Shown here piece after piece: positions 606 through 50,291 of a stretch of 64,000 nucleotides of DNA. Positions within the stretch are counted from its first letter, which is position 1, and each line of letters begins with the position of its first letter. A program made the position numbers and the translations under genes. The stretch comes from Pseudomonadota bacterium (GTDB lineage: Bacteria > Pseudomonadota > Alphaproteobacteria > Rickettsiales > UBA6187), in NCBI GenBank assembly GCA_027620075.1, contig JAQCEY010000008.1, positions 32,504-96,503 on the forward strand. The letters run 5' to 3'. The notes beneath the pieces are model-generated. The model worked only from the letters and a program-made list of their open reading frames with translations. It was not told the DNA's origin and did not search any database.

Positions 606-1472
606 ATGAAAGGCATTATTTTAGCAGGAGGATCGGGAAGCAGACTAGCCCCGATAACAAGAACAATAAGCAAGCAGGTTATTCCGCTTTACGACAAGCC
701 TATGATTTTTTATCCGCTATCAACCTTAATACTGTCTGGTATAAAAGACATATTAATAATAAGTACGCCACGTGATTTACCATCAATTGTAAGATTATTG
801 GGTGACGGTTCTAAATTAGGTATATCCATATCATATAAAGAACAACCAAAACCGGAAGGCATTGCACAGGCGTTTTTAATCGGTGAAGAATTTATAAACA
901 ACTCCCCTGTGTGTCTTATTTTGGGTGATAACGTTTTTTATGGACAAGGCTTGTCTAATAAACTTAGCGAAGCTTCAAAGTTAAACAAAGGTGGGCTTGT
1001 ATTCGGCTATCACGTAAAAGACCCTGAACGCTACGGCGTTGCCGAGTTTGATAAAAATAAAAAAGTCATCTCTATTGAAGAAAAACCCAAACAACCAAAA
1101 TCAGCATGGGCAGTAACAGGCTTGTACTTTTATGACTCACAGGTCGTTCAAATAGCAAAAAACTTAAAGCCGTCAGCACGTGGCGAGCTTGAAATAACCG
1201 ATGTTAACAACGAATACCTGAAAAAAGGTCAGTTGAATGTCGAGCTATTCGGGCGAGGAATGGCATGGCTTGATACGGGTACGCCTCAATCGCTGCTAAA
1301 TGCATCAAATTTCGTCCATACCGTTGAAGAACGCCAAGGGCTAAAAATAGGCTGTATTGAAGAAGTTTCATACAGAAAGAATTTTATTGATAAAACACAG
1401 CTTATGGCTTTAGCAGGTGAATATAAAAACAATGAATACGGTGAATATTTGAACCGGTTAGCCAATGAATAA
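606..1472 (+). CDS. rfbA: Glucose-1-phosphate thymidylyltransferase (RmlA)
   Basis: 288 aa. N-terminal [18 protein letters not shown] nucleotidyltransferase signature and RmlA-like sequence along the full length. Followed by rfbD and rfbC. Confidence 0.92.
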
Positions 1473-2379
1473 AAAATATATAATCATCGGAAAAAACGGA
1501 CAAGTAGGCTCTAATCTTGTCCGGCTTTTGGGAAATAACGCAATCTCATATTCACACAGCGATTGTGACTTTAAAAACCTAACGCAAGTAACTAATTTAT
1601 TAAAAGAAACCGACATTAAGGCAATCTTTAATGCTTGTGCCTATACAAATGTAGATGCCGCTGAAACCGAGTATGACGAAGCAATTGCCGCCAACTGTGA
1701 AATACCCGACACGCTGGCAAAATTTTGTAAGGAAAAAGACATACCGCTTGTGCATTACTCAACAGATTATGTGTATAGCGGCGATGGAACGGCTCCCAAT
1801 AAAGAGGAAGATGCCCCCTCCCCTTTGAACAAATACGGGCAAAGCAAGCTAGACGGGGAAAAACGAATAATTGCAAGCGGCTGTAAATACCTGATATTCA
1901 GAACCTCGTGGGTATATGACCTACATGGAAAGAATTTCCTTACCACCATGCTACGCCTTGCCAAAGAACGTGAGGGCCTATCTATAGTATCAGACCAAGT
2001 CGGTTCGCCGACATATGCACTAGACCTAGCGGAAAAATCTATTGAAGCATTTGAAAATGCACTAAAAAAAGATTCGTTTCCATCGGGTGTATATAATTTA
2101 TGTAATAGCGGCGAAACAAACTGGCATGAATTTGCCGAAAACATTTTTGATAATGCCAAAAAGCATGGTATTGCTTTAAAAATAAAAGAGGTAAAAAAAA
2201 TAACCGCTTGTGAATATCCGACTCCCGCAAAACGCCCTTTAAATTCAAGATTAGATTGCAGTAAGGCTAAATCTGTACTAAACACTCAAATGCCCGATTG
2301 GAAAGACAGCTTAGAAAAGTGCATGGAGAAATTAATTGAAAATACAAACAACACCGATAAAAGACCTGTTAGTTGTTGA
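1465..2379 (+). CDS. rfbD: dTDP-4-dehydrorhamnose reductase (RmlD)
   Basis: 304 aa. Rossmann start [10 protein letters not shown] and catalytic YGQSK (Y-x3-K). The start overlaps the rfbA stop (ATGAATAA). Confidence 0.88.
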
Positions 2380-2890
2380 ACTTGACGTTCATGGTGATGA
2401 GCGTGGCTTTTTTGTGGAGCGTTTCCATTTTGAAAAATTTTCGGAACTTGGATTACCGACAATTTTTCCGCAAGACAACCACTCCCGTTCCGCCCCTAAC
2501 GTACTTCGAGGAGTTCATTACCAACACACACCTGCACAAGGCAAATTAGTCGGAGTAATAAGGGGCAGAATTTGGGACGTTGCCGTTGATATACGCCCTG
2601 AGTCTGAAACATTCGGGCAATATTTCGGCATTGAACTTGATGATATTAACGGCAAATTGCTATGGATTCCTGCCGGATTTGCACATGGCTTTTGCGTACT
2701 ATCCGATGATGTTGCAGACGTATATTATAAAGTAACGTCCGCCTATAATCCGCAAGGTGAATCGGGCATTGCATGGAACGACCCTGAATTAAGTATTGAC
2801 TGGCCGCTAAAAAATCCGATAATTTCAACAAGAGATACAAAACAACAAAGTTTTAAACAATATAAAAACAATCTTCCCGACCGGAATTAA
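2336..2890 (+). CDS. rfbC: dTDP-4-dehydrorhamnose 3,5-epimerase (RmlC)
   Basis: 184 aa cupin with DERGFF, HYQ and GFAHGF motifs. TTG start located inside the rfbD 3' end. Confidence 0.9.
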   Translation: MKIQTTPIKDLLVVELDVHGDERGFFVERFHFEKFSELGLPTIFPQDNHSRSAPNVLRGVHYQHTPAQGKLVGVIRGRIWDVAVDIRPESETFGQYFGIELDDINGKLLWIPAGFAHGFCVLSDDVADVYYKVTSAYNPQGESGIAWNDPELSIDWPLKNPIISTRDTKQQSFKQYKNNLPDRN

Positions 2891-2912
2891 CATAATAATT
2901 AATTGAATTTTA

Positions 2913-4775
2913 ATGCAAAAAGATATGACTGATACGCAGCAATCAGAGTATAGTGTTAGTGTGGTTATGCCCTCATACCATACCGGCCCTGTGATTATAC
3001 GTGCCATAAAATCAGTTCTGTCGCAAAAGTATTTGAAAGAGCTTATAATAGTTGATAACGGCAATTCGGATTATGTACGTGGAAAAATAGAGGAATATTC
3101 GCTAAAGCATGATGCGATACATATAATATCGGGACAGGGAAATATCGGCTTTGCAAGGGCGTGTAATTTAGGTGCGCATGAAGCTAAGGGGAATTATCTG
3201 CTTTTTTTAAATCCTGACTGTATATTGCCTACAAATTCATTCCAAAAAATCATAAACGAAATAGAAAAAGATGATGATGTGTGGTTGGCAGGGTGTAAGC
3301 TTGTCAACCCTAACGGCAGCGAACAAAAGGGTAATCGTCGCAACTTACTGACTTTCAAAAGCCTTGCGGCAGAATGGTTCGGTTTACACCGATTTTTGAA
3401 TATACCGAGATTCGAACTGGGTAAAACACATATATCAAACAAGAATAATTATGTACCTGCCATATCAAGTGCGTTGATGATGATATCACGGGATAAATTC
3501 AATCAAATCGGCACTATGGACAAAAGCTACTTTGTGCATATTGAAGACCTCGACCTTTGCTTTAAGGTAAACCAGATGGGAGGAAAAATAGCGTTTTTAT
3601 ATGAGCTGGAAGTAGTACGGTACGGAACTAGCGATGATATTACCAAATTAAACTTGAATAAACATCGAGCAAAAGGTCTGGCATATTATTTTAGAAAAAA
3701 TTTTAACGGGGCTTATTTTCCGGGTGCTATATTACTCATATGGATAATAATATATCTTCGCTTTTTCTTTCAGGCATCATTTTATTTGCTCAAGAAAATA
3801 AAAAATAAATTCTGTAATCCGTTCCTGACCAAAGACGAAATAAAATGCTATAAATCCTTTGTTGAAAGCTATAAGGAATTTGAAAAAGAATGCAAAGATA
3901 TACCCAAAGACTCTAAATACAATATCTCTAACCGCTCACCCGTACTAATCACCGATACGGAGTCTGAAACGGGAATATCAATTTTACGGAGATTGTTAGC
4001 TGCTAATATTGATGTGGTTGCACTATATAAAAACAATTATATAGACATATACCACCCAAAATTAGTATGGATAAAGTCCGATATAAATAATAAAAATTTG
4101 GATTTGCCAAAAAACACTACGGTGAAAACGGTGTTTTATACGTCGAATTTTGATTATATCGCACCGTTTTTAGAAAAATTTGCGGCAATAGGCACAAAAA
4201 GAATAATCATCTGCTGTCCGCTAAATGCGTCCAATAAAAAGGATATCATTGAAAAGGACATATCACGCATCTGTAGCAAAAAAGAGATAGATTATACCAT
4301 TTTAAAAACCCCGATAGTATATGGTCTGGGAGCGAATATATATTTTTCCCCGATTCATGAGTTTATTAAAAAATTCGGCAGATTTCCGGTTAAACGTTCT
4401 AATTTTAAGATATACTCGCCAATTCACGCAGATGACCTCGCTATATCAGCAATTAAGATACTAAATTTCAAAGAAACATATGGCAAGAGCTATAACCTTA
4501 TCGGAAGTGATAAGGAGTTAAGCTATAAAAAAATGATTGAAAAGATTTTCAAGTCATTAAATAAAAAGCAAAAAATAAGCAACTCACGTTTTTGGTTACT
4601 TTTTTATAAACTTTATACAAAATTTACTAACTCAAAAGATATCAATACCGATATCCGAAAATATAAGGAAGAACGCTTTATAATAAATTCCGATGAGGCA
4701 AAAAAAGATTTTGATTTTTATGCGGGCAGTTTTCTTGAGGCATCAAATAAAGATTTAGGAATAGACAAAACATGA
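2913..4775 (+). CDS. Family-2 glycosyltransferase (rhamnosyltransferase-like) fused through a membrane segment to an atypical SDR/NAD-binding-like domain
   Basis: 620 aa. N-terminus is GT2 (VSVVMPSYHTGP..IIVDNGNSD, FLNPDC, EDLDLCFK). Hydrophobic segment GAILLIWIIIYLRFFFQASFYLL. C-terminal ~270 aa resembles an epimerase/NmrA-type fold (PIVYGLG, IHADDLA, SYNLIG), but the glycine-rich motif is degenerate (LITDTESETG). Confidence 0.7.
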   Translation: MQKDMTDTQQSEYSVSVVMPSYHTGPVIIRAIKSVLSQKYLKELIIVDNGNSDYVRGKIEEYSLKHDAIHIISGQGNIGFARACNLGAHEAKGNYLLFLNPDCILPTNSFQKIINEIEKDDDVWLAGCKLVNPNGSEQKGNRRNLLTFKSLAAEWFGLHRFLNIPRFELGKTHISNKNNYVPAISSALMMISRDKFNQIGTMDKSYFVHIEDLDLCFKVNQMGGKIAFLYELEVVRYGTSDDITKLNLNKHRAKGLAYYFRKNFNGAYFPGAILLIWIIIYLRFFFQASFYLLKKIKNKFCNPFLTKDEIKCYKSFVESYKEFEKECKDIPKDSKYNISNRSPVLITDTESETGISILRRLLAANIDVVALYKNNYIDIYHPKLVWIKSDINNKNLDLPKNTTVKTVFYTSNFDYIAPFLEKFAAIGTKRIIICCPLNASNKKDIIEKDISRICSKKEIDYTILKTPIVYGLGANIYFSPIHEFIKKFGRFPVKRSNFKIYSPIHADDLAISAIKILNFKETYGKSYNLIGSDKELSYKKMIEKIFKSLNKKQKISNSRFWLLFYKLYTKFTNSKDINTDIRKYKEERFIINSDEAKKDFDFYAGSFLEASNKDLGIDKT

Positions 4776-5743
4776 CAATATTAATAACCGGTGCGGCAGG
4801 TTTTATCGGATACCACGTGGCAAAAAAACTGCTGGAACGTGGTGAAAAAATCATCGGCATTGATAACCTGAATGATTATTATGACGTAAATTTAAAAAAA
4901 GACAGGCTGGAACTTTTAAAGCAAAGCATTAATTTTGCATTTTATCACACTGATATATCAGGTGCAAACGTAATCAACGATATTGCAAGCAAGCATCGTG
5001 ACATCAATAAAGTTGTTCATTTAGCGGCACAGGCAGGAGTGCGTTATTCTCTGGAAAATCCGTTTGCATATATTAACAGTAATCTTGTCGGTCATGCGGT
5101 TATATTGGAAATGTGCCGTAATTTAGATAATTTCGAGCATCTGGTATATGCAAGCTCAAGCTCGGTTTATGGTGGAAATACCAAATTACCGTTTTCAACT
5201 AAAGATTCGGTAGACCACCCTCTTTCATTATATGCGGCAACTAAAAAAGCTGATGAATTATTAAGCCATAGCTATAGTCATTTGTATAACATACCTACAA
5301 CCGGATTGAGGTTTTTTACAGTTTACGGTTCTTGGGGCAGACCTGATATGGCAACGTTTTTATTCACAAAAGCTATATCTGAGGGAAAGCCGATAGATGT
5401 ATTTAACAACGGTGATATGCGAAGAGATTTTACATATATTGACGATATAGTAGAAGGCACTATATCGGCACTTGATAATCCGCCATCGGGCAAGCCTCCT
5501 TATAAGGTTTACAATCTTGGTAATAACACTTCTGAGAACCTTATGGACTTTATCGGAATAATAGAAGAATCACTTGATAAAAAAGCTGAAATTAACTTTA
5601 AACCGATGCATATCGGTGACGTTAAAGAGACATATGCCGACATTGAAGATACTAAAAAAGATTTAGGATTTTCTCCTAAAACCACAATCAGGCAAGGTTT
5701 ACCTAAATTTATCGAGTGGTATAAGTCTTATTATTCAAAATAG
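4772..5743 (+). CDS. NAD-dependent nucleotide-sugar epimerase, UDP-glucuronate 4-epimerase-like (CapI/WbnF group)
   Basis: 323 aa extended SDR. ITGAAGFIGYH Rossmann motif and YAATKKADE (Y-x3-K). ATGA overlap with the upstream gene. Confidence 0.8.
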   Translation: MTILITGAAGFIGYHVAKKLLERGEKIIGIDNLNDYYDVNLKKDRLELLKQSINFAFYHTDISGANVINDIASKHRDINKVVHLAAQAGVRYSLENPFAYINSNLVGHAVILEMCRNLDNFEHLVYASSSSVYGGNTKLPFSTKDSVDHPLSLYAATKKADELLSHSYSHLYNIPTTGLRFFTVYGSWGRPDMATFLFTKAISEGKPIDVFNNGDMRRDFTYIDDIVEGTISALDNPPSGKPPYKVYNLGNNTSENLMDFIGIIEESLDKKAEINFKPMHIGDVKETYADIEDTKKDLGFSPKTTIRQGLPKFIEWYKSYYSK

Positions 5744-8966: not shown

Positions 8967-9839
8967 TTATTCTCCAAATTTTTCCTTAAAATAACCCTTT
9001 ATAAAAGTTGCCGAAGCAATATCCCTTGCCGTAAATCCGTTATTGTTCCTTATCTCTACATCGGCTCCGGCTTTAATAAGCAGCTTTACCACATCAAGGT
9101 TATGAGATATAGAAGCTCTGTGTAGCGGTGTATTGCCTTCTTTATTCTTTGCGTTAATATTAACACCTTTATTTATCAATAGCTCCACAACGTCCGGATA
9201 GCCATAATAACAAACTCTGTGTAAAGGAGTATTTCCCCTATCGTTGATTGCCTCTTTATCCGCACCGCATTTAATTAACAACTCAACAACATTTTTACAG
9301 CCGTGAGAGGCGGCTTTATGCAAAGCGGTGTTGCCGGATTTATTTCTTAAATTTACATCAACATTATAGGTAAGAAGGCATTCAAGGTTTTTAAGTCTAC
9401 CTACCTCCGCAGCAATATGAATCGGTGCATTTCCCCTTTCATTAACCGCCGTAACATCTGCACCCGAACCAATCAGGGTTTTTATAAGATTAAAATCGGC
9501 AAATTCAGACGCTATGTGCAAAGGAGTGTTGCCGCAATTATCACTAGCATTGACATCACCTCCCATTTTCAACAAATAAGATACAAACTCATATTTATTA
9601 TAACGAATAGCAACATGTAGGGCATCTGCACCCTTTTTATTAACAAAATTAATGTTCGCACCTTGGCTTATAATCTTTTCTAACTTAGCAAGCTCATTAC
9701 CTGATGCAAGATACTTATGTAACAACGCAGTCTTCTCAATTACATTGCGTCTTGATGCTTCGAGTTGTTCCTTTTTTTTCTTTTCCAGTTCTTTTTTTAT
9801 TGCCGCTTGTTGTTCTTCTTTGGTACTAGTATATATCAT
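8967..9839 (-). CDS. Ankyrin-repeat protein (about 7 ANK repeats)
   Basis: 290 aa. Reiterated G(N/D)TPLH..A......vv.lLi..GAdvn units after a Lys/Glu-rich N-terminus. Confidence 0.9.
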   Translation of the reverse strand: MIYTSTKEEQQAAIKKELEKKKKEQLEASRRNVIEKTALLHKYLASGNELAKLEKIISQGANINFVNKKGADALHVAIRYNKYEFVSYLLKMGGDVNASDNCGNTPLHIASEFADFNLIKTLIGSGADVTAVNERGNAPIHIAAEVGRLKNLECLLTYNVDVNLRNKSGNTALHKAASHGCKNVVELLIKCGADKEAINDRGNTPLHRVCYYGYPDVVELLINKGVNINAKNKEGNTPLHRASISHNLDVVKLLIKAGADVEIRNNNGFTARDIASATFIKGYFKEKFGE

Positions 9840-13539: not shown

Positions 13540-14799
13540 ATGGCACTCAGAAAAAAACAACCTAAAATATACAAGTCGGCTTTAAATGATTTAAAAGCCG
13601 CAAGGTTTCTTGCCGGACACGAATATATCAAAGGTATGCAAAAAGCGGGGAACGATAACTACAGGGCAAGAAGCTCACGATTAAAGACACTATTCATGAT
13701 ATGCACCATGACATTGGTTATAGCCGTTTTATTACTAGCTAAATCCGCTCATTCTGCATCACGTATAAAAGACATAGTTTATTTTGAAGGCATAAGGGAA
13801 AACACCTTGCTCGGCTATGGTCTGGTGGTAGGTCTGAACGGTACGGGTGATAACCTGAAGAACTCACCGTTTACAGAAAAAGGTCTTGCCGAGTTCCTGT
13901 CAAAATTAGGTATCAACTCAAAAGGCACTAACTTAAAGACAAAGAACGTTGCCGCAGTAACTATAACGGCTAACTTTCCTGCATTTGCAAGGGTCGGTAG
14001 TAAATTTGACGTTACCGTAAGTACCTTAGGTGACGCAAAAAGCCTTGAGGGCGGAACATTGCTCGCATCGCCACTGCTAGGTGCTGACGGCAATGTATAT
14101 GGTGTGGCACAAGGTCCTGTAACAATAGGAGGAGTAATAAGCGATTCGGACTCCTCAAACGCAAAATCCAAAGGTGTCGGAACAAATAGTACGATAGCTA
14201 ACGGAGCTACCGTTGAGCGTGAAATAGCTTTTGACCTGTCATCAATGAAGTCTTTAAAACTGGCGTTACGCAACCCTGATATATCTACCGCACGCCGTAT
14301 TTCGGAGAACATAAACGACGCTATCGGTGAAGATGCGGCTAACCCTCTTGACCCCGGTACGGTTAACTTAAATGTTCCTGATATTTATGAAGGAAACGTT
14401 TTGGGTCTTTTGGCAGATATTGAGCAGATAATCGTAGAGCCTGACCAGCGTGCCGTTGTTGTAATTGATGAGGCATCGGGAACAATAGTTATGGGCGAAG
14501 AGGTTAAGATAGATACCGTTGCCGTAGCACAGGGAAATCTGATGGTTGCCGTAAATAGCAATTTCAATGATAAGGGTAATGCATTTTCGTCCGACGTATC
14601 AAGGGCATCGGGCAATACCGAGCCTGTAAATAATAATAATAATCCGGGCAACGGTCTTGCGGTATTACCGCAGGGTGCAAACTTGCGTGACCTAGTAAGC
14701 GGGTTAAACGCACTTGGAGTCGGCACACGTGATTTAATTACAATATTGCAAACTATTAAAGTAGCAGGTGCATTACACGCCGATATAGAGGTAAGGTAA
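13540..14799 (+). CDS. flgI: Flagellar P-ring protein FlgI
   Basis: 419 aa. GYGLVVGLNGTGD and other FlgI blocks throughout. The signal peptide (LVIAVLLLAKSAHSA|S) only begins around residue 53, so alternative starts at 13636 or 13696 are plausible. Confidence 0.9.
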   Translation: MALRKKQPKIYKSALNDLKAARFLAGHEYIKGMQKAGNDNYRARSSRLKTLFMICTMTLVIAVLLLAKSAHSASRIKDIVYFEGIRENTLLGYGLVVGLNGTGDNLKNSPFTEKGLAEFLSKLGINSKGTNLKTKNVAAVTITANFPAFARVGSKFDVTVSTLGDAKSLEGGTLLASPLLGADGNVYGVAQGPVTIGGVISDSDSSNAKSKGVGTNSTIANGATVEREIAFDLSSMKSLKLALRNPDISTARRISENINDAIGEDAANPLDPGTVNLNVPDIYEGNVLGLLADIEQIIVEPDQRAVVVIDEASGTIVMGEEVKIDTVAVAQGNLMVAVNSNFNDKGNAFSSDVSRASGNTEPVNNNNNPGNGLAVLPQGANLRDLVSGLNALGVGTRDLITILQTIKVAGALHADIEVR

Positions 14800-15120
14800 A
14801 TGAAAGTCGGAACACTGTTTTTAACAATAATACTGTTTTCATCACATGCCGGTGCAGGCTCTTTTGAGCAACTGAACCGTCAAACCTCGCAAATTGACGA
14901 TGACAACAAGATACATGAAGAAGCGGTGGAATTAGAATCGGTTTTAATATCTAAAATGATAGAACCTATGTTCCCTGACGGCAAAGAAAGCGGATTATAT
15001 GGCGGAGGGCATGGCTCGGATATCTTCAGGCAAATGATGATTGATGAATACGCAAAAACACTTGCAACAACAAACGGCTTAGGGCTGGCAGAAAGCATTG
15101 AAAGAGATTTAAAAAAATAA
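14800..15120 (+). CDS. flgJ: Rod-binding protein (single-domain FlgJ N-terminal type, no muramidase domain)
   Basis: 106 aa. ELESVLISKMIEPMF....GGGHGSDIFRQMMIDEYAK matches the FlgJ rod-binding domain pattern. The ATG directly abuts the flgI stop. Confidence 0.7.
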   Translation: MKVGTLFLTIILFSSHAGAGSFEQLNRQTSQIDDDNKIHEEAVELESVLISKMIEPMFPDGKESGLYGGGHGSDIFRQMMIDEYAKTLATTNGLGLAESIERDLKK

Positions 15121-15130
15121 GGGAACAAAC

Positions 15131-15580
15131 ATGACGACAGAAACAAATAAAATAGATTTTGCGGATATGGTATCGGTAATCAAGCGTCTTACGAATATCT
15201 TATCTATCGAAATACAAATGATAAAAGATATGAAACTTGCCCAGATTCATACCTTACAGGACGAAAAACTTAAACTCCTGTCGGTTGTAGAGAGCTTCAA
15301 AGAAACTATTCAGGAAAACCCTGATATTCTAGCCTCAATAAACGAAGCAACAAAAAGAGAACTGACACAAGCCAACAACGAGTTTGAAAAGCTTATAAAT
15401 GAAGATGGCAAACAGCTTCTCAAAGCAAGAAAGGTGCATCAGATAATTATGGAATCAATACGAAAAGTTCTTGATGACAAACAGAAAAACTCAATGAGTT
15501 ATAATCAGGAAGGAATAGTCGGTAACAATAAAAAAAAAATTGTGAGCTCGAGTCCGTTCACGGTTAACTCATCTATTTAG
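15131..15580 (+). CDS. Putative FlgN/FlaN-like flagellar export chaperone
   Basis: 149 aa, predicted helical. Sits immediately upstream of flgK-flgL, as flgN/flaN does. Sequence similarity is judged weak. Confidence 0.45.
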   Translation: MTTETNKIDFADMVSVIKRLTNILSIEIQMIKDMKLAQIHTLQDEKLKLLSVVESFKETIQENPDILASINEATKRELTQANNEFEKLINEDGKQLLKARKVHQIIMESIRKVLDDKQKNSMSYNQEGIVGNNKKKIVSSSPFTVNSSI

Positions 15581-15599: not shown

Positions 15600-18014
15600 A
15601 TGACAACTTTATCAAACGCATTATCCGCATCACTTAGTAGCCTTAAAACAGTGCAGGAAAGTATATCTGTGGCTGCAAATAACGTTGCAAATGTTAACAC
15701 ACCCGGATATGTAAGGCAAACGGTTAACCAGCAATCAATAGTAACTGACGGCGTAGGTCAGGGCGTACAGGTAGTTTCTATCACGGCTAATGTCGATGAG
15801 CAGTTGTTAAAGTCGTTACGGGCACAATTTTCCGAATTAGGTTATGCAAACGCCTTAAACGGTTACTACGATACGGCACAGACACTACTTGGAAAACCAA
15901 GTGACGATAACAGCCTAAGTAGCTCTATAGACAAGTTTCTTGCCGACTTCCAAATACTCAGTGACACCCCTCAAACAGCATCATTGCAGTTAGCTGCGGT
16001 CAATAGTGCGGTTGATTTGACAAATAAAATTTCCCAAACGGCTAGAGATCTGCATAACTTACAGGTTAGTGCCGATGCACAGATAAAAGCCGAGGTAAAT
16101 CAGGTAAACAGCATTATTCTGAGTCTGCATGATACGAACGTTCAAATAATAAATTTCCCTGAAGGGACGGCAGGACGGCTTGAAATAGAGCAGGAAAGAG
16201 AGGTGTTGCTAAGGCAGCTTTCCGAATATGTAAATGTAAGTGCAAATGTTAATAGCGACGGCAAATTAACAGTCTTAACGGGAAGCGGATTATCATTGCT
16301 CGAAACATCAGGACCATATCAACTATCTCACATTGCAGTTCCTTCAAGGGATAACTTTGTAAACGGCACGCCAAGGTCTGCTATTACCATATCACCTTTA
16401 AACAATAACGGCACTTTAGGTGAGCCGGTCGATCTGGTTACATCGGGCATAGGTTCTTCCGTTACCACAAGTCTTACATCAGGCTCAATAAAAGGTCTGG
16501 TTGAAATAAGGGAGCTTGAGTTGCCTAAAATTATAGAACAACTTGATAATCTTGCTTTAGAACTGACAAAACAGGTGAATGCTATTACAAATAACGGATC
16601 AAGCTTCCCTCCCCCCTCATCATTGACAGGTACGACCTCTATTGCCTCAACAACTTCCGTAGGCTTTTCAGGTAGCGTAATGATAGCAGTTCTTGACAGT
16701 GACGGAACGCCTCCGACAAGTCCTTATTCCGATGAAGTAAACCTACGACCACTCACACTGGACTTGGGAAGCCTTGATAGCGGAAGTGGAGCAGGGCAAC
16801 CGGACTTACAAACTATCGTAGATGAAATAAACTATTATTACGGCCCTCCTCAACCGCGTGCGGAAGTGGGCAATCTGCGTGACATAACATTAGCTGCCGT
16901 ATCAACTGATATTGCAGACGGAGGAACGGCACAATTCGACCTTCAGCTTGATAATATTTCAACCGAAAATGCCACAGTGGTTATAAACTCCATTACCGTT
17001 ATTGACCCTATTGACTTCAGCCAGACATATAATGCGGCAACATTACCAAGTCCTAATAGCTATGTTGTTAATCCGGGCGACAGGGAGCGGACAGGCATAC
17101 CTTTTACGGTAGATTTTGGCGGTGACGATAACAGGGCATCTTATACTGTACGTGTGCAGGTACAGGTTACCGATGCATCGGGTAATGTGTCGGTTGCAGA
17201 TATTGATTACACCGTAAACGATAACGTAACGGCGGTAAAAAATGACAGATATCCGCCTGCTGCGGTAACTAACGTTTCGGGAACAAGTACCCTTCATGCA
17301 GCACCTTCATCACAAGGCTTTTTAACAGCAAGTATTGTTGATGCCAACGGTGTAACGGTATCAGCCGGAACTTCCGGGTTTTTAAAATTAACCACTAATC
17401 CCAATTCAAGTTACGGCGTGGTAATGAGTGAGCTTAACAGTCAGGAAGTAGGGCTGCCTTCGACTCCGTCTAGTAGCGTTACTAATAAAGGTTTTTCCGA
17501 TTATTTCGGAATGAATAATTTTTTCGAACCACATGGTACAACAGGTGGAAGTGCATTAAACATGTCGGTTAGAAGTGATATTGTAAGCAACCCGAGTAAA
17601 CTTCAAAGGGCGTCTTTGATACTTTCAAACCAGCCTTCAGACCCTAATACTGCTGTTTATACATATGAGATAGGAAGCGGTGACAACGCCATACTTTCAA
17701 GCATAGCCTCATTAAACGATGTAGATGTTTCATTTGCCTCAGCAGGAACCCTGCCTAATATAACAACCACATTAACAGGATATAGTGCCGATATTATAGG
17801 TTACACCTCTACGATATCGGTAAGGTTTTATAACGTACAACAAATCGAAGCACTAGGTCTTGAAGGTCTAAACGACCTGTTGTTCAAACAGGCTGGAGTA
17901 AATACCGATGATGAACTGGCAAGGATAATCGAATTAGAGAATAACTATAAGGCATCGGCTCAAATCATCAGCACAATACAGGAACTATTTAGAGCCTTAC
18001 AGCAAGCGTTCTAA
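15600..18014 (+). CDS. flgK: Flagellar hook-associated protein 1 (FlgK), long form
   Basis: 804 aa. N-terminal SVAANNVANVNTPGY and a C-terminal helical YKASAQIISTIQELFRAL typical of FlgK. Large Ser/Thr/Asn-rich central region. Confidence 0.9.
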   Translation: MTTLSNALSASLSSLKTVQESISVAANNVANVNTPGYVRQTVNQQSIVTDGVGQGVQVVSITANVDEQLLKSLRAQFSELGYANALNGYYDTAQTLLGKPSDDNSLSSSIDKFLADFQILSDTPQTASLQLAAVNSAVDLTNKISQTARDLHNLQVSADAQIKAEVNQVNSIILSLHDTNVQIINFPEGTAGRLEIEQEREVLLRQLSEYVNVSANVNSDGKLTVLTGSGLSLLETSGPYQLSHIAVPSRDNFVNGTPRSAITISPLNNNGTLGEPVDLVTSGIGSSVTTSLTSGSIKGLVEIRELELPKIIEQLDNLALELTKQVNAITNNGSSFPPPSSLTGTTSIASTTSVGFSGSVMIAVLDSDGTPPTSPYSDEVNLRPLTLDLGSLDSGSGAGQPDLQTIVDEINYYYGPPQPRAEVGNLRDITLAAVSTDIADGGTAQFDLQLDNISTENATVVINSITVIDPIDFSQTYNAATLPSPNSYVVNPGDRERTGIPFTVDFGGDDNRASYTVRVQVQVTDASGNVSVADIDYTVNDNVTAVKNDRYPPAAVTNVSGTSTLHAAPSSQGFLTASIVDANGVTVSAGTSGFLKLTTNPNSSYGVVMSELNSQEVGLPSTPSSSVTNKGFSDYFGMNNFFEPHGTTGGSALNMSVRSDIVSNPSKLQRASLILSNQPSDPNTAVYTYEIGSGDNAILSSIASLNDVDVSFASAGTLPNITTTLTGYSADIIGYTSTISVRFYNVQQIEALGLEGLNDLLFKQAGVNTDDELARIIELENNYKASAQIISTIQELFRALQQAF

Positions 18015-18032: not shown

Positions 18033-18950
18033 ATGACTATTGAAATAAAAGTACCTACACCGACTCAAAAAATAATCTCACTGTCGCAAACCAAACAGAA
18101 CGAGTTACAAAAAGCCTCCATACAAAGTGCGACAGGGAATAGATATGAAGATTTTCAAGGGTACGCATCAGAGGGTACGGTTGAACGATATATATCACTT
18201 GATTCAAGCATAAAAGCAACCGATACCTATATCAAATCAAACGAGATAATTCAGGCAAGAACACAAACAATAGAGCAATCTTTAGAGCAAATAGTGGTAG
18301 TTGCAAGAGATGTTATCAGCACTATATCACAAAGAAACAATGGGGCATCAGGTGAAAATATACCTATTGACGTAATAACCGACTCATATTTCCAGAGCAT
18401 CGAATCAATTTTAAATACACGTTCTGACGGGATTTATCTATTTGCAGGAACTAAAACCGACACTAAACCGGTTGTAAACGCAAATTCAAGCAATGTCGAC
18501 TCTACAACTCTTGTTACCAGTGCCTCTTATTATCAGGGCAATAGTGCCATTGCTTCCGTTAATATAAGTCAATCCGAAGTGCTTTCATACGGTGTAACTG
18601 CTAATGACCCTGCTTTTCAGGAATTAATCGGGGCAATACATTTACTGATAGAAGCTGACGCAAGCGGAGATACGGAATTATTAGGCAAGGCACTCGATAT
18701 GGCAAACAGTGCTAATGAACGTATCGTTTCACTTGCAGCCTCGGCACGCTCGGCAAGTAACAGACTTGCAAAAATAAACACCGTGCATACAAGTGTAGGA
18801 ACACTACTCTTTGAGAGTTTTAGCGATGTAGCATTTATCAGACTTGAAATTGCGGCAACCAAAATGATTGAACTTGAGGCAATTATCGAAGCTTCATACC
18901 TTGCTTTTAATAGGCTCAGTAATCTTAAACTATCTAACTTTTTAAGCTAA
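18033..18950 (+). CDS. flgL: Flagellar hook-associated protein 3 (FlgL)
   Basis: 305 aa. Flagellin-like N- and C-terminal helices. Positioned directly after flgK. Confidence 0.8.
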   Translation: MTIEIKVPTPTQKIISLSQTKQNELQKASIQSATGNRYEDFQGYASEGTVERYISLDSSIKATDTYIKSNEIIQARTQTIEQSLEQIVVVARDVISTISQRNNGASGENIPIDVITDSYFQSIESILNTRSDGIYLFAGTKTDTKPVVNANSSNVDSTTLVTSASYYQGNSAIASVNISQSEVLSYGVTANDPAFQELIGAIHLLIEADASGDTELLGKALDMANSANERIVSLAASARSASNRLAKINTVHTSVGTLLFESFSDVAFIRLEIAATKMIELEAIIEASYLAFNRLSNLKLSNFLS

Positions 18951-18962
18951 CCATTAACTAAT

Positions 18963-19484
18963 ATGAGGAATATCATGAGAACTTCAACAGAAGACAATTT
19001 AAAATCCAATCCAAAAGTTTTATCGTCATCGTCCGATAAAATTGATAGCAAGAATCTGATTACTATCAAGAGCCGTTTCGGTAAGATTGAAGTTGATAAA
19101 TCAAAACAAATATCTTTCAAACATGGTGTTCTGGGGATTCCAAGAGCCGTTACATTTTGTCTTACAAAATTACCGACTATAACATCAGACCAGTTTAAAT
19201 TATTACAATGCCTTGAAGATGACGAGCTGTCGTTCATAGTTGTTCCGGCACAATACGACAACAGGCTTATAGAAAGTCAGGATTTAGATGAAGCATGCAA
19301 AGTTCTGGATATAAAAACCGATAAATTGTTATTACTATTTATCGTTACTATTCAAGAAAATGGAGCAAAAAGAGAAATTTCAGTTAATGCTAAAGCTCCT
19401 GTATTGGTTGATGTTGAAAGCAAAACGGCACACCAGTATGTTCTTCAGAATCCTTCGTATAAAATTCAACACAAAATTTCTTAA
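18963..19484 (+). CDS. fliW: Flagellar assembly factor FliW
   Basis: 173 aa. TIKSRFGKIEVDKSKQISFKHGVLGIP...FKLLQCLEDDELSFIVV fits the FliW pattern. About 35 extra N-terminal residues. Confidence 0.75.
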   Translation: MRNIMRTSTEDNLKSNPKVLSSSSDKIDSKNLITIKSRFGKIEVDKSKQISFKHGVLGIPRAVTFCLTKLPTITSDQFKLLQCLEDDELSFIVVPAQYDNRLIESQDLDEACKVLDIKTDKLLLLFIVTIQENGAKREISVNAKAPVLVDVESKTAHQYVLQNPSYKIQHKIS

Positions 19485-19619
19485 TAAATTAAGTCATGTA
19501 GACAAAAACGCCTGAAGGTATCAGGCATAAAAAATAAATACTTGTCAAATGTTTTTAATGTCGTTAAAGTGCAGCCGAAGTAGTATTATTAAAACAATTT
19601 ACAAACCTTTAGTTGCGAC

Positions 19620-20756
19620 ATGTTTATTAAGAAAAAAATACCTGTTTCTAAAACAAACCTTCCACATCACAGTGACATATACCCGTACTTACAAGATATA
19701 AAAAATGATGATTCCACATACGGTAGAAGACCTTTAGTCGATCACCTGAAAACCAGATTTCAGGAGTTGTTCGGAACCGAAAAAGGTATGGTCGCCATAA
19801 CATCAAATGCGGTCTATGCTCTAGCCAATACCTTAAAAGCATTAAATGTCCCGGCAAACAGCTATTGTCTTATGCCTTCATGGTGTTCCCCTTCAATACC
19901 TTATGCGGCAACTTACGCAGGTTTAACGCCGTATTTTATTGATGTTGACGACGACACATGGACACTTGATGTTAAAAATACCGTTGAAAGCTTAATGTAT
20001 ATAAAGCAGGAAATAGGTGCCGTTATAGTTCCGTCTTCGATAGGAGAAACCATAAATACAAAAGAATGGGATAAATTTACCGAAGAAACAGGCGTACCTG
20101 TTATAATCGGTGCGTCAAATTCATTTGATAACGTTACATCACAATCAAAATCGGTAATATCCGATACACCTATCGTTATAGGGTTTAATCATAATAGTTT
20201 ACTATGTTTTGGTGAAGGAGCCGTTATTGTATCCAAAAACAAGAAACTGATAGAAAAAATAGATAATATATCCACATTCGGTCTTGGTGACGAACTTTAC
20301 AAAATATATATAGGCACAAACGGGATTATGACCGAATATAATGCGGCAGCGTGCCACGCTGCCCTTGATTCATGGGATTCAACAAGGGCAAAATGGAACA
20401 CTATCAATAATTATTACATCGAAACTTTCATTGAAACAACATTGCAACACCGGCTTTCATTTGAGTACTTATCATCAACGTGCAATATATATTTGCTGGC
20501 AAATAACGCAGATAGCACTATTGATTACCTCAAGTCAAAAGGTATTGAAGCCCGAAAATGGACGGGCAACGGCTGTCATAATATGAAAGAATTTCAAAAT
20601 GCACCGAAAACAAGCCTTCCTGTGACAGATAATCTTATATCCTCCGTCATAGGATTGCCTTATTATCTCGGCATAACAAAGAAAGAAATAGAACTTATTG
20701 TTAGAACACTTAGCAGTAATGTCTACGGGAAAAAAATTCACCTTAGAAATGCTTAG
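19620..20756 (+). CDS. DegT/DnrJ/EryC1/StrS-fold protein lacking the canonical PLP lysine
   Basis: 378 aa. Family-like N-terminus and a GFNHNSLLCFGEGA block that aligns without gaps to SFHxxKxxxxGEGG. Ser193 (20196..20198) sits at the Lys position. The DAAHA Asp position appears to be Gly164. Confidence 0.65.
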   Translation: MFIKKKIPVSKTNLPHHSDIYPYLQDIKNDDSTYGRRPLVDHLKTRFQELFGTEKGMVAITSNAVYALANTLKALNVPANSYCLMPSWCSPSIPYAATYAGLTPYFIDVDDDTWTLDVKNTVESLMYIKQEIGAVIVPSSIGETINTKEWDKFTEETGVPVIIGASNSFDNVTSQSKSVISDTPIVIGFNHNSLLCFGEGAVIVSKNKKLIEKIDNISTFGLGDELYKIYIGTNGIMTEYNAAACHAALDSWDSTRAKWNTINNYYIETFIETTLQHRLSFEYLSSTCNIYLLANNADSTIDYLKSKGIEARKWTGNGCHNMKEFQNAPKTSLPVTDNLISSVIGLPYYLGITKKEIELIVRTLSSNVYGKKIHLRNA

Positions 20757-20812: not shown

Positions 20813-21244
20813 CTATTTTTTCTTTATTTTTGCCTGATCTTCTATTAACAGGCTTCCGTTGTAGTTTTCTTTTCTTAACCGTTCTTTTATATAAACACGG
20901 TTTCTATGTATATCATCTACTTCTTTTTTAACAAAATTAGATTCGGCTTCGGCTAATAGACTTTCTATTCCTTTAACGCCATCATCAATGTTTCTTGAAT
21001 CCGTTACTATATTTTTAATTATAGCATCGGCAATTGCGTCATATAGAGCATCAGGATTGTTTTTTTTATCCCTTGCACTTTTAGCATCAAGCAACTTCAC
21101 TAAAGAAGGCTTGTTTTTAGAAGCTTTTACATTTTCGCCGACAATTTGCTTCCTTTCCTTATTTTGCTTAGTAGGTACAATAGAGTAAAAAAGTGCAAAT
21201 ATTTTCCCCTTAACAGAATCACTCTCTTTCTTCTTTTTCACCAT
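20813..21244 (-). CDS. Hypothetical Lys-rich protein
   Basis: 143-aa ORF with no recognised motif. Its coding status rests only on length and on filling the gap between flanking genes. Confidence 0.35.
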   Translation of the reverse strand: MVKKKKESDSVKGKIFALFYSIVPTKQNKERKQIVGENVKASKNKPSLVKLLDAKSARDKKNNPDALYDAIADAIIKNIVTDSRNIDDGVKGIESLLAEAESNFVKKEVDDIHRNRVYIKERLRKENYNGSLLIEDQAKIKKK

Positions 21245-46728: not shown

Positions 46729-47502
46729 TTATACCTTCCAAGGAGCATTACCGCTATGCCAAAGTTCTTCTAGGTGTGCTTTGTCTCTTGGGGTATCCAT
46801 ACAATGCCAGAAGCCCTTATGCTTATATGTCATAAGCTCTTTGTCCTTCGCAAGATTTTCCAAAGGAGACTTTTCCCAAATAGTAGAACTTCCATCTTTT
46901 ATGTAATCAAGAACCTTATTGGATAGCACAAAATATCCACCATTTATGTTACGCCCGTCACTTGAAGGTTTTTCGAGGAAGTTTGTTACCATACCATCAC
47001 TATCAGTTTCTATCTCTCCAAACCTGCTTGGAGCTTCAATTGATGTTAATGTTGCAAGTTTTCCATGTAATTTATGAAACTCAACTAGCTTCTGTATATT
47101 TACATCCGAAACACCATCACCATAGGTAAAGCAAAAAGTTTCTTCATCTTTTATATAGTCTTTTACAGCTAATAGCCTTCCACCGGTCATTGTTTCATAT
47201 CCGGTTTCAACAAGCGTTATCTTCCATGGCTGAGAGCGATTATTATGTAACTTTATAGAATTATCAGACAAATCTATTGTAAAGTCAGACTCATACTCAT
47301 AGAAGTTCAGGAAGTAATCTTTTATTATATTAGCTTTATAACCTAGGCATATTACAAAATCATTTATTCCATAATGTGAGTATGTCTTCATAATATGAAT
47401 AAGGATTGGCATCCCCCCTATTTCTATCATCGGCTTTGGTATGAACTCGGTTTCTTTACCTATTCTTGTTCCAAATCCACCTGCTAAAATAACTGCTTTC
47501 AT
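46729..47502 (-). CDS. rfbF: Glucose-1-phosphate cytidylyltransferase
   Basis: 257 aa. MKAVILAGGFGTRIGKETEFIPKPMIEIGGMPILIHIMK and C-terminal FWHCMDTPRDK are RfbF signatures. Confidence 0.9.
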   Translation of the reverse strand: MKAVILAGGFGTRIGKETEFIPKPMIEIGGMPILIHIMKTYSHYGINDFVICLGYKANIIKDYFLNFYEYESDFTIDLSDNSIKLHNNRSQPWKITLVETGYETMTGGRLLAVKDYIKDEETFCFTYGDGVSDVNIQKLVEFHKLHGKLATLTSIEAPSRFGEIETDSDGMVTNFLEKPSSDGRNINGGYFVLSNKVLDYIKDGSSTIWEKSPLENLAKDKELMTYKHKGFWHCMDTPRDKAHLEELWHSGNAPWKV

Positions 47503-47511
47503 TTTTTACTC

Positions 47512-49357: not shown

Positions 49358-49456
49358 TAGCCTAATTTATATCCCTTATAAAAATAGCATTGCAAAATTA
49401 GTTCAGCATAAAACATTTTATACAAAAAACTGACATCTTGCAATTTAAATGGTAAT

Positions 49457-50170: not shown

Positions 50171-50291
50171 TGGTATCTAATTCTTTTTCATAACCGCAAT
50201 TGACAACTCCCACAGCACAACAATAAAACAAAAATGCTGTAGATAAAAGTCAAAAGAAATGATATTTATATTTAAAAAAAGTATTTAAAAA

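What the first reader, a model, noticed from the sequence alone, without database searches (positions are those of the whole stretch)
19620..20756. DegT/PseC-fold protein next to the flagellar genes lacks both the Schiff-base lysine and the PLP-binding aspartate
GFNHNSLLCFGEGA aligns without gaps to the family block SFHxxKxxxxGEGG. This puts Ser193 (20196..20198) where the catalytic Lys should be. The (V/I)xDAAHA block reads VIIGASNSF, with Gly164 at the Asp position. Sugar aminotransferases of this family make flagellin and LPS amino-sugars (for example PseC). The only well-known natural Lys-less member I recall is the dehydratase ColD, which has His there. So this protein is either a repurposed enzyme or a pseudoenzyme, and its position suggests a link to flagellar glycosylation or assembly.
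Basis: partly seen in the sequence, partly recalled or inferred. Interest (0 to 1): 0.6.

Follow-up and report, generated by a model that had tools for sequence, protein, structure and literature searches.

The report
Lysine-less aminotransferase homologue beside flagellar genes
A gene that databases call a sugar aminotransferase has lost the residues that hold its vitamin-B6 cofactor, yet has been conserved next to late flagellar genes in a small group of uncultured Rickettsiales-like bacteria, so it is most likely a non-catalytic "pseudoenzyme" with an untested flagellum-related role.

Summary
ORF 19620-20756(+) is a confident DegT/DnrJ/EryC1-fold protein (Pfam E=1e-34; AF2 pLDDT 89; TM 0.86 to PDB 3ju7). 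Four pairwise alignments to solved structures, a 176-sequence alignment and a family HMM all put Ser193 at the Schiff-base Lys column and Gly164 at the PLP-N1 Asp column.

The damage goes beyond those two residues. Sixteen of 74 family-conserved columns are replaced, including the TF stacking motif, the S and H of SLHATK, and the YSNFG, R226 and K236 columns.

It is not a decaying gene. A monophyletic clade (200/200 bootstraps) of five lineages, 39-97% identical, all keep Ser at the Lys column, with dN/dS about 0.09. All keep the order flgI-flgJ-x-flgK-flgL-fliW-gene, even where the flanks differ. Asp-to-Gly occurs only in the three closest sequences.

Lys-containing relatives (38% identity or less) recurrently lie in flagellin-glycosylation islands with FlmG-like TPR-glycosyltransferases and flagellin/FliD/FliS/FlgKL.

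Best reading: a PLP-free descendant of a flagellin-glycan aminotransferase, kept for a non-catalytic flagellum-linked role. The role is inferred, not shown. The public annotation as an aminotransferase is probably wrong. I found no description of such a member in four literature searches.

The parts
19620..20756 (+). Lys-less DegT/DnrJ/EryC1-fold gene (378 aa), the subject of the finding
   Evidence: ORF. Pfam PF01041 E=1e-34. AF2 pLDDT 89.3, pTM 0.88. Foldseek top hit 3ju7, TM 0.86. NCBI names it 'DegT/DnrJ/EryC1/StrS family aminotransferase [Rickettsiales bacterium]'.
20181..20198 (+). GFNHNS (residues 188-193), replacing the family motif SLHATK; Ser193 (20196-20198, AGT) sits at the Schiff-base Lys column
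   Evidence: In relatives outside the clade these columns are S 100%, H 100%, T 98% and K 99%. In all six full-length clade sequences they are G/D, N, variable and S.
20109..20111 (+). Gly164 (GGT) at the column of the Asp that pairs with the PLP pyridine nitrogen
   Evidence: D in 173 of 176 sequences. G only in the window protein, P0001 and P0002. P0003-P0006 keep D.
19884..19895 (+). C89-S90-P91-S92, replacing the family 'TFVA' motif that carries the aromatic residue stacking on the cofactor ring
   Evidence: Family T 92%, F 96% and A 92% are fully replaced in the clade (C/I, S/C/A, S/T). The role of the Phe is from my own knowledge of DegT-family structures.
19722..19730 (+). G35-R36-R37, replacing the family 'N-F-G' of the YSNFGP motif; G35 and R37 are new clade-invariant residues
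   Evidence: Family N 97% and G 97% become G and R in all six clade sequences.
18963..19484 (+). fliW (flagellin-binding assembly factor), immediately upstream on the same strand
   Evidence: Pfam FliW E=3.6e-19. NCBIfam FliW models. Same position in L001, L003, L004, L005 and L050.
18033..18950 (+). flgL (hook-filament junction protein)
   Evidence: Flagellin_N matches in the window protein (below Pfam's cut-off) and in orthologues.
15600..18014 (+). flgK (hook-associated protein, 804 aa)
   Evidence: Pfam FlgK_D1 E=3.4e-32 and Flg_bbr_C.
13540..15580 (+). flgI, a rod-binding (FlgJ-like) gene and a 149-aa unknown ORF that open the conserved gene string
   Evidence: Pfam FlgI E=1.4e-118; Rod-binding E=2.7e-12; the 149-aa ORF has no significant family.
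19510..19526 (+). Conserved hairpin in the 135-bp fliW-gene spacer, followed by a conserved TTGTCA-containing stretch; it may separate transcription units
   Evidence: Alignment of four loci. Folding gives -9.4 kcal/mol, z=-3.3. A T-run follows it only in L003. A promoter-like match lies at 19542-19570.

Best explanation
The gene encodes a catalytically dead, probably cofactor-free descendant of a nucleotide-sugar aminotransferase that once served flagellin glycosylation.

Shown by sequence:
- It keeps the full fold-type-I / DegT architecture and many structural motifs of its subfamily.
- The residues I take to hold PLP, by recall from solved DegT structures, are replaced: the Schiff-base Lys, the Ser and His of SLHATK, the stacking Phe and the phosphate-binding Thr. 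In this genome the ring-nitrogen Asp is replaced too.
- Other conserved columns that I take to be substrate-contacting are also replaced (YSNFG loop, R226, K236).
- The change arose once, on a fast-evolving stem branch. Since then the protein has been under purifying selection as strong as that on its flagellar neighbours.
- It has stayed fixed directly downstream of flgK-flgL-fliW.

Inferred: it now works by binding rather than catalysis. It would be an accessory or regulatory factor in the late steps of flagellum assembly, with FliW, flagellin, the junction proteins or a flagellin glycosyltransferase as likely partners. It is not an enzyme that makes an amino sugar.
For: Fold and homology.

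Residue equivalence: four pairwise alignments, a 176-sequence alignment and an HMM built without the clade, all at maximal posterior.

Extent of active-site loss: 16 of 74 columns that are at least 80% conserved in the family are fully replaced in the clade, while 31 are fully kept. Several replaced positions vary within the clade (T65, F90, D164, 191, 192, R226, K236), as expected for relaxed constraint on a former pocket. G35, R37, N190 and S193 are newly fixed.

Not a pseudogene: intact ORFs in five lineages at 39-97% identity. pN is far below pS, and dN/dS is about 0.09, against 0.08 for fliW, 0.11 for flgL and 0.05 for flgI over the same genome pair.

Single origin: clade monophyly in 200 of 200 NJ bootstraps. 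Among 1.84 billion cluster representatives only three belong to the clade, followed by a score gap from 630 to 332 bits.

Stem acceleration: about 2.5 times more lineage-specific changes than in Lys-containing near relatives, chi-square 10-26 with in-family outgroups.

Flagellar link: the order flgI-flgJ-x-flgK-flgL-fliW-gene is kept in L001-L005 and L050. In L005 both outer flanks differ.

Ancestral role: Lys-containing relatives lie beside FlmG-like TPR+GT41 proteins, hexapeptide acetyltransferases, methyltransferases and WbqC, and beside flagellin/FliD/FliS or FlgK/FlgL (L006-L010, L013, L018, L023, L026, L032, L037, L041). FlmG is the TPR+GT-B flagellin O-glycosyltransferase of Caulobacter (PMC7591256).
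Against: - No experiment or structure shows absence of PLP/PMP binding. Four of the seven clade sequences still have the Asp, and N234 and GEGG are kept, so weak non-covalent cofactor binding is not excluded.
- The newly fixed R37, N190 and S193 could equally mark a new catalytic or ligand site.
- The flagellar role rests only on synteny and ancestry.
- A conserved hairpin and a promoter-like element separate the gene from fliW, so co-transcription is not established.
- No FlmG-like gene or other flagellin-glycosylation hallmark lies in the 64-kb window. The rest of the genome could not be inspected.
- dS is near saturation, so dN/dS is approximate.
- No model coordinates were available, so I could not examine the pocket geometry.
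Confidence: 0.5

Rival explanations
1. It is a repurposed enzyme. The DegT scaffold now catalyses a different reaction. One option is use of non-covalently bound PMP, as in the 3-dehydratases ColD/E1/SpnQ. Another is PLP-independent chemistry using the clade-invariant Ser193, Asn190 and Arg37.
For: - Natural Lys-less DegT homologues that remain enzymes exist: ColD, E1 and SpnQ (PMC8987622; bioRxiv 10.1101/2021.09.04.459008).
- S193, N190, R37 and G35 are invariant in the clade.
- Asp164 is retained in P0003-P0006.
- Selection is strongly purifying.
- Sugar-nucleotide genes (rmlA/C/D, epimerases, GT2) lie in the same window.
Against: - The known dehydratases have His, not Ser, at the Lys column as catalytic acid/base.
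- Here the stacking Phe, the SLHATK Ser/His and the Thr are gone, and in three sequences the Asp too.
- There is no conserved four-Cys motif for a [2Fe-2S] cluster: C89 and C196 are not invariant.
- Several pocket positions vary freely within the clade, which is atypical for a newly built active site.
- NCBIfam equivalog scores are far below cut-off.
Confidence: 0.17
2. It is an inactive aminotransferase homologue, but its position next to fliW is inherited gene order without functional meaning. Its role would lie in general cell-envelope sugar metabolism or elsewhere.
For: - A hairpin and a promoter-like element in the spacer suggest its own transcription unit.
- The clade is narrow, and four of the five lineages are closely syntenic on both sides, so shared order partly reflects shared ancestry.
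- Envelope-sugar genes are present in the window.
Against: - In the most divergent member (P0005, 39% identity) both outer flanks differ (pseudouridine synthase upstream, GrpE downstream), yet flgI...fliW-gene is intact.
- Lys-containing relatives in unrelated lineages are independently linked to flagellin, FliD/FliS, FlgK/L and FlmG-like genes.
Confidence: 0.15
3. It is a decaying relic (unitary pseudogene in progress) with no function.
For: Loss of catalytic residues. Accelerated stem branch. Probable host-associated, reduced genome: an ankyrin-repeat protein and contigs of about 0.95 Mb.
Against: Full-length intact ORFs in five lineages down to 39% identity. dN/dS about 0.09, equal to that of neighbouring flagellar genes. 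118 columns are invariant across the clade. The predicted fold is confident.
Confidence: 0.03
4. The missing lysine is an alignment artefact, and a nearby Lys (K206/K208/K209) serves as the Schiff base.
For: Several lysines follow within 16 residues.
Against: All alignments are ungapped from the DAA block through GEGG, with maximal posterior. The K206-K209 segment aligns after the GEGG turn, to a segment where Lys-containing relatives also carry K/S/T. K208 and K209 are not conserved in the clade.
Confidence: 0.02

Closest known systems
3ju7-like subfamily of DegT/DnrJ/EryC1/StrS sugar aminotransferases (structure 3ju7, Bacillus cereus, function uncharacterised; motifs YSNFGP, PSWTF, DAAA, SLHATK, WWGxGCH)
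   Same: Same fold (TM 0.86). It is the best sequence match (E=3e-36). Subfamily-specific structural motifs are retained (CxxPSW, FxDVD, GEGG, NxxxSEYxAA, W..G.GCH, STCN). Members in Alphaproteobacteria and others sit in flagellin-glycosylation islands.
   Different: The Schiff-base Lys, the S and H of the Lys motif, the stacking Phe and the YSNFG, R226 and K236 columns are replaced. In this genome the Asp is replaced too. It sits after fliW rather than inside a sugar-modification island.
PMP-dependent nucleotide-sugar 3-dehydratases ColD, E1 (DdhC/RfbH) and SpnQ
   Same: Natural DegT-fold proteins without the active-site lysine (PMC8987622; 10.1101/2021.09.04.459008). E1 structures appear among the fold hits (3bb8, 3bcx).
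   Different: They carry His at the Lys column as catalytic base and still bind PMP. E1 and SpnQ add a [2Fe-2S] site. Here the residue is Ser, the cofactor-contact residues are lost, and there is no conserved Cys cluster. The weak RfbH model hit (E=1e-4, 21 bits against a 423 cut-off) does not indicate membership.
FlmB/PseC and LegC, the aminotransferases of flagellin pseudaminic and legionaminic acid pathways
   Same: Same Pfam family. They act in flagellin O-glycosylation together with FlmG or Maf transferases (PMC7591256).
   Different: NCBIfam PseC scores 51 bits against a 423.5 cut-off, and the LegC family 72 bits against 420. It is a different subfamily and lacks the catalytic residues.
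Pseudoenzyme partners in sugar pathways and PLP families: EryCII/DesVIII (P450 homologues without the haem cysteine that activate glycosyltransferases) and antizyme inhibitor (ornithine decarboxylase homologue that binds no PLP). Both are cited from my own knowledge.
   Same: The logic is the same: an enzyme fold that has lost cofactor ligation but is conserved and works through protein binding in the pathway of its ancestors.
   Different: The folds and pathways are unrelated. For the present protein no partner and no activity have been demonstrated.

Membership tests
DegT/DnrJ/EryC1/StrS homology family (Pfam PF01041; fold-type I PLP fold) | Significant full-length match to the family profile | tested here: met
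   E=1e-34, 120.8 bits against a 19.8 cut-off, profile positions 23-359 of 360.
DegT/DnrJ/EryC1/StrS homology family (Pfam PF01041; fold-type I PLP fold) | Two-domain aminotransferase fold | tested here: met
   AF2 pLDDT 89.3. Foldseek probability 1.00 and TM 0.77-0.86 to 3ju7, ArnB, WbpE, DesI and perosamine synthase.
Active PLP-dependent nucleotide-sugar aminotransferase | Schiff-base lysine in the S-x-H-x-x-K motif | tested here: not met
   Ser193 at that column. K in 167 of 176 relatives; S only in this clade.
Active PLP-dependent nucleotide-sugar aminotransferase | Aspartate pairing with the pyridine N1 (D-A-A motif) | tested here: not met
   Gly164. D in 173 of 176 sequences. Retained in clade members P0003-P0006.
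Active PLP-dependent nucleotide-sugar aminotransferase | Other cofactor contacts: aromatic residue stacking on the ring (T-F motif), Ser of the Lys motif, and Thr of the N/G-x-T phosphate loop | tested here: not met
   F90 becomes S/C/A, S188 becomes G/D, and T65 becomes V/C/T/S/K. The structural role of these columns is from my own knowledge of the family, not measured here.
Active PLP-dependent nucleotide-sugar aminotransferase | Binds PLP/PMP and transaminates an NDP-keto-sugar | not testable with these tools
   Needs purified protein. No model coordinates were available to inspect the pocket.
Named equivalogs (DesI, LegC, PseC, ArnB, WecE, RfbH) | Score above the NCBIfam curated cut-off | tested here: not met
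   Best is DesI at 104.6 bits against 650. LegC 72 against 420, PseC 51 against 423.5, ArnB 47 against 631, RfbH 21 against 423.
ColD/E1/SpnQ PMP-dependent 3-dehydratases | Histidine at the Lys column acting as catalytic base | tested here: not met
   Ser193. The adjacent His191 is not conserved in the clade (H/H/N/K/A/I).
ColD/E1/SpnQ PMP-dependent 3-dehydratases | Four-cysteine [2Fe-2S] motif (E1 and SpnQ only) | tested here: not met
   Only C83, C288 and C319 are invariant in the clade, and these columns are Cys in Lys-containing relatives too. C89 and C196 are not invariant.
Pseudoenzyme (conserved, catalytically inactive homologue of an enzyme) | Loss of essential catalytic or cofactor residues, with the fold retained | tested here: met
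Pseudoenzyme (conserved, catalytically inactive homologue of an enzyme) | Maintained by purifying selection across lineages | tested here: met
   dN/dS about 0.09 (dS near saturation). Five lineages at 39-97% identity. Monophyly 200/200.
Pseudoenzyme (conserved, catalytically inactive homologue of an enzyme) | Demonstrated lack of the ancestral activity and a demonstrated non-catalytic role | not testable with these tools
   Requires biochemistry and genetics.

The most novel reading that the evidence does not exclude
The Lys-less protein is a new non-catalytic component of the flagellin homeostasis or export circuit. It occupies the slot directly after fliW where, from my own knowledge, csrA usually lies in other phyla. 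No csrA was detected in the window or in any clade locus. It could therefore be a lineage-specific FliW or flagellin partner. One option is a replacement output module for the FliW-flagellin checkpoint. Another is an EryCII-like activator or adaptor of a flagellin glycosyltransferase. Either way it would be built from a dead sugar aminotransferase.
Probability: 0.12. Interest if true: 0.8.

Novelty: new variant of a known kind. Interest (0 to 1): 0.45.

Why it matters
If the reading is right, this is the first conserved, cofactor-site-less (Ser-type) member of the DegT sugar-aminotransferase family known to me. The known Lys-less members (ColD, E1, SpnQ) are all still PMP enzymes with His at that position.

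It would add a bacterial example of an enzyme from a post-translational-modification pathway being recycled into a non-catalytic part of the machine that its product used to decorate.

It also flags a systematic annotation error: NCBI and JGI name these proteins as aminotransferases.

It gives a concrete, cheap test: PLP-binding spectra and pull-downs with FliW and flagellin.

The impact is limited. The clade is tiny (five lineages of uncultured, probably host-associated Rickettsiales-like bacteria), and the function remains inferred.

Tried and rejected
1. Hidden lysine or misalignment. Rejected by four structure-anchored pairwise alignments, the 176-sequence alignment and an HMM built without the clade.

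2. Pseudogene. Rejected by dN/dS and conservation.

3. ColD/E1-type dehydratase. There is no His, no conserved Cys cluster, and the cofactor contacts are lost.

No hit better than E=1.1, and none at all in the window or the clade loci.

5. Search for an FlmG-like transferase, flagellin, FliD or FliS in the 64-kb window. None found. Pfam annotation of 50 window ORFs found only rml/epimerase/GT2 envelope-sugar genes.

6. A database search with the FlmG-like protein of L010, to see whether the same MAGs encode one. None of the 120 listed hits shares the contig sizes of the clade genomes (946,925, 944,303 or 382,862 bp). This is uninformative or weakly negative.

7. The genome-contig scan with the clade profile returned only Lys-containing relatives of 37% identity or less. 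The clade itself is not among the species representatives searched.

8. Sigma-28 or sigma-54-like promoter motifs in the fliW-gene spacer. No convincing match by eye. Only a weak sigma-70-like match was found.

9. Literature searches for DegT pseudoenzymes, FliW-linked aminotransferases, non-catalytic aminotransferase-like proteins, and FliW in Alphaproteobacteria. No precedent found.

10. The first Biopython NJ bootstrap timed out. It was redone with numpy.

11. The pocket geometry of the AF2 model could not be inspected, because the tool returns no coordinates.
Full report
**1. What is there**

The ORF at 19620-20756(+) is real, 378 aa long and starts with ATG.
- It matches Pfam DegT_DnrJ_EryC1 nearly end to end (E=1e-34).
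- Its best solved relative is 3ju7, an uncharacterised "putative PLP-dependent aminotransferase" from Bacillus cereus (E=3e-36). DesI, an archaeal sugar transaminase and QdtB follow.
- An AlphaFold2 model built on a 30-sequence alignment is confident (pLDDT 89.3, pTM 0.88).
- Foldseek places the model among sugar aminotransferases: 3ju7 at TM 0.86, then ArnB, WbpE, DesI and perosamine synthase. E1 dehydrase comes further down.

**2.

Codon 20196-20198 is AGT (Ser193) and codon 20109-20111 is GGT (Gly164).

All four printed phmmer alignments run without gaps from the D-A-A block through GEGG. They pair Ser193 with the Schiff-base Lys and Gly164 with the Asp.

I aligned the protein with 175 relatives, drawn from a word-indexed search and an exhaustive profile search of 1.84 billion cluster representatives.
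- The Lys column is K in 167 sequences, S in 7, and T or M in 2.
- The Asp column is D in 173 sequences and G in 3.

An HMM built from the 169 sequences outside the Lys-less clade aligns 'SLHATK' to 'GFNHNS' and 'viDaAagfd' to 'IIGASNSFD' at maximal posterior probability.

Those lysines lie beyond the GEGG turn, in a segment where Lys-containing relatives also have K/S/T. K208 and K209 are not conserved.

**3. The loss is much wider than two residues**

Seventy-four columns are at least 80% conserved in the relatives outside the clade. Of these, 31 are kept in all six full-length clade sequences and 16 are replaced in all six. The replaced columns are:
- D28
- Y33, N35 (to G) and G37 (to R), that is the YSNFGP motif
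- T89, F90 and A92, that is the TF(V)A motif
- V138
- S188, H190, T192 and K193, that is SLHATK
- N219, R226, K236 and G245

T65 and A166 are mostly replaced, and D164 is replaced in half the sequences.

From my own knowledge of DegT-family structures, these include the aromatic residue that stacks on the cofactor ring, the Ser and Thr that hold the phosphate, and loop residues that contact substrate. I could not verify the geometry because model coordinates are not returned.

Within the clade some of these positions vary freely (65, 90, 164, 191, 192, 226, 236), as expected for a pocket released from constraint. G35, R37, N190 and S193 are newly invariant.

Structural and subfamily motifs outside the pocket are retained: CxxPSW, FIDVD, GEGG, N234..SEYxAA, W314..G318-C-H320 and STCN.

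**4. It is a conserved lineage, not a decaying gene**

The Ser-type sequences form one clade:
- the window protein (identical to NCBI MDA0782563.1 and others, labelled Rickettsiales bacterium)
- P0001 (97% identical)
- P0002 (69%)
- P0003 and P0004 (61%)
- P0005 (39%)
- the fragment P0006

Other findings on the clade:
- It is monophyletic in 200 of 200 neighbour-joining bootstraps. Its Lys-containing sister is unresolved.
- In the exhaustive search only three 50%-identity clusters belong to it, followed by a score gap from 630 to 332 bits.
- Between the window and L001, dN/dS is about 0.09. For the same genome pair fliW gives 0.08, flgL 0.11 and flgI 0.05. dS is near saturation, so the ratio is approximate, but pN (0.19) is far below pS (0.72).
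- Relative-rate tests show about 2.5-fold more lineage-specific substitutions in the clade than in Lys-containing near relatives (chi-square 10-26 with in-family outgroups). This points to a burst of change on the stem. The test assumes the tree topology.
- Asp-to-Gly is found only in the window protein, P0001 and P0002. Loss of the Lys therefore came first and loss of the Asp later.

**5. Context**

Upstream on the same strand lie flgI, a rod-binding FlgJ-like gene, a 149-aa unknown ORF, flgK (804 aa), flgL and fliW. Downstream on the other strand are a 143-aa unknown ORF, fmt and def.

The same string flgI-flgJ-x-flgK-flgL-fliW-gene is present in every clade locus recovered: L001/L002, L003/L004, L005 and L050. 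In L005 both outer flanks differ, with a pseudouridine synthase upstream and GrpE downstream.

The 135-bp fliW-gene spacer holds a conserved hairpin (-9.4 kcal/mol, z=-3.3) and a conserved TTGTCA-containing segment. A T-run follows the hairpin only in L003. The gene may therefore have its own promoter, and co-transcription with fliW is not established.

**6. Where it came from**

Lys-containing relatives (38% identity or less) repeatedly lie in sugar-modification islands. These islands hold a TPR + Glyco_transf_41 protein, hexapeptide acetyltransferases, methyltransferases, PhyH and WbqC. Several also sit next to flagellar genes:
- L008: FliS, FliD and flagellin.
- L023 and L026: flagellin, FlgK and FlgL.
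- L037: flagellin.
- L041: FliD and FliS.
- L010, a Rickettsiales MAG and the best hit in the genome collection at 37%: a canonical SMHATK aminotransferase, with a TPR-GT41 gene two ORFs downstream, about 4 kb from a flgI...flgK-flgL-fliW string.

TPR + GT-B is the architecture of FlmG, the flagellin O-glycosyltransferase of Caulobacter (PMC7591256). The ancestral job of this subfamily was therefore plausibly to make an amino sugar for flagellin glycosylation.

In the 64-kb window there is no FlmG-like gene, flagellin, Maf or nonulosonic-acid synthase. It holds only rmlA/D/C, epimerases and GT2 genes typical of envelope polysaccharide. The rest of the genome could not be examined. A search with the L010 FlmG-like protein gave no hit attributable to the clade genomes, which is at most weakly negative.

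**7. Most likely mechanism**

Shown by sequence: the protein cannot form an internal aldimine and has lost most of the residues I take to be cofactor contacts. It is under purifying selection, and it is positionally locked to the late flagellar genes.

Inferred: it no longer binds PLP and no longer transaminates. It is retained as a binding protein in flagellin handling or filament assembly, acting as an adaptor or regulator. Candidate partners are FliW, flagellin, FlgK/FlgL or a flagellin glycosyltransferase.

I put about 0.85 on "not a PLP-dependent aminotransferase", about 0.6 on "non-catalytic", and about 0.5 on the combined statement with a flagellar role.

Rivals:
- A repurposed enzyme, using either non-covalent PMP or new chemistry around Ser193, Asn190 and Arg37 (0.17). 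The known Lys-less homologues ColD, E1 and SpnQ have His there and remain PMP enzymes, whereas this protein has lost most of the cofactor-contact residues.
- An inactive protein whose flagellar neighbourhood is only inherited gene order (0.15).
- A decaying relic (0.03).
- An alignment artefact (0.02).

**8. Comparison with what is known**

By homology it is a member of the DegT/DnrJ/EryC1/StrS family, in the 3ju7-like subfamily.
- It fails the defining tests for an active aminotransferase: Lys, Asp and other cofactor contacts.
- It fails the ColD/E1/SpnQ tests: no His and no Cys cluster.
- It falls far below every NCBIfam equivalog cut-off.

Functionally the nearest analogies, from my own knowledge, are pseudoenzymes that stay in their ancestral pathway as binding partners. 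Examples are the haem-less P450 homologues EryCII and DesVIII, which activate glycosyltransferases, and antizyme inhibitor, a PLP-free ornithine decarboxylase homologue.

Four literature searches found no description of a DegT-family pseudoenzyme or of an aminotransferase homologue linked to FliW. Public annotation calls the protein an aminotransferase or a dTDP-4-amino-4,6-dideoxygalactose transaminase. That is probably an over-annotation.

**9. Verdict**

This is a new variant of a known kind: a conserved, Ser-type, cofactor-site-less DegT homologue.

Interest is moderate (0.45). It is a clean and unusual pseudoenzyme case with a suggestive flagellar link and easy biochemical tests. However, it is confined to a handful of uncultured lineages and its actual role is unproven.

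The most novel reading not excluded is a new FliW or flagellin partner occupying the slot where csrA usually lies, with no csrA detected locally. I give this about 0.12 probability.

Noticed in passing
window 18963-19484 (+): FliW carries an N-terminal extension of about 35 residues relative to the Pfam and NCBIfam models. No csrA homologue was detectable in the window or in clade loci L001-L005. From my own knowledge, fliW-csrA adjacency is common elsewhere. Here the Lys-less DegT-like gene occupies that slot.
   Followed up: partly
window 19510-19526 and 19542-19570 (+): A conserved hairpin (CGCCTGAAGGTATCAGGC core, -9.4 kcal/mol, z=-3.3) and a conserved TTGTCA-containing stretch lie in the fliW-gene spacer. 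The hairpin is followed by a T-run only in L003. It could be a terminator, an attenuator or an RNA-stability element.
   Followed up: partly
P0085, P0094; L030:10001-11071: Three further members of the same subfamily appear to lack the Schiff-base Lys independently: SLHATT, SLHLEM, and SLHAQA in a Caulobacterales MAG. They keep the Asp and most other motifs. The two proteins come from short contigs of under 3.5 kb, so sequencing error is possible there.
   Followed up: no
window 8967-9839 (-): A 290-aa protein made almost entirely of ankyrin repeats (Ank_5 E=1.6e-54). This is typical of host-associated or intracellular bacteria and fits the 'Rickettsiales bacterium' label and the roughly 0.95-Mb contigs of close relatives.
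   Followed up: no
window 606-5743 (+) and 46729-51377: There are two nucleotide-sugar clusters. The first holds rmlA, rmlD, rmlC, a 620-aa GT2 and an RmlB-like dehydratase/epimerase. The second holds an NTP-transferase, a GT2 and two epimerase/dehydratase genes. These are probably for envelope polysaccharide. Neither contains an aminotransferase.
   Followed up: partly
window 15600-18014 (+) and 15131-15580 (+): FlgK is long (804 aa, conserved at 804-806 aa across the clade and in L010). It is preceded by a conserved 149-aa ORF with no significant family match. By position this ORF might be a FlgN-like chaperone.
   Followed up: no
window 20813-21244 (-): A lysine-rich 143-aa ORF with no Pfam match converges on the gene's 3' end. 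Unannotated ORFs of 161-165 aa sit at the same position in L001-L004 but are absent in L005, where GrpE sits instead.
   Followed up: no
L010:11149-11580 (+): In the Rickettsiales MAG whose aminotransferase is the best genome-collection hit, a pyrimidine-dimer DNA glycosylase gene is wedged between the aminotransferase and the FlmG-like transferase.
   Followed up: no
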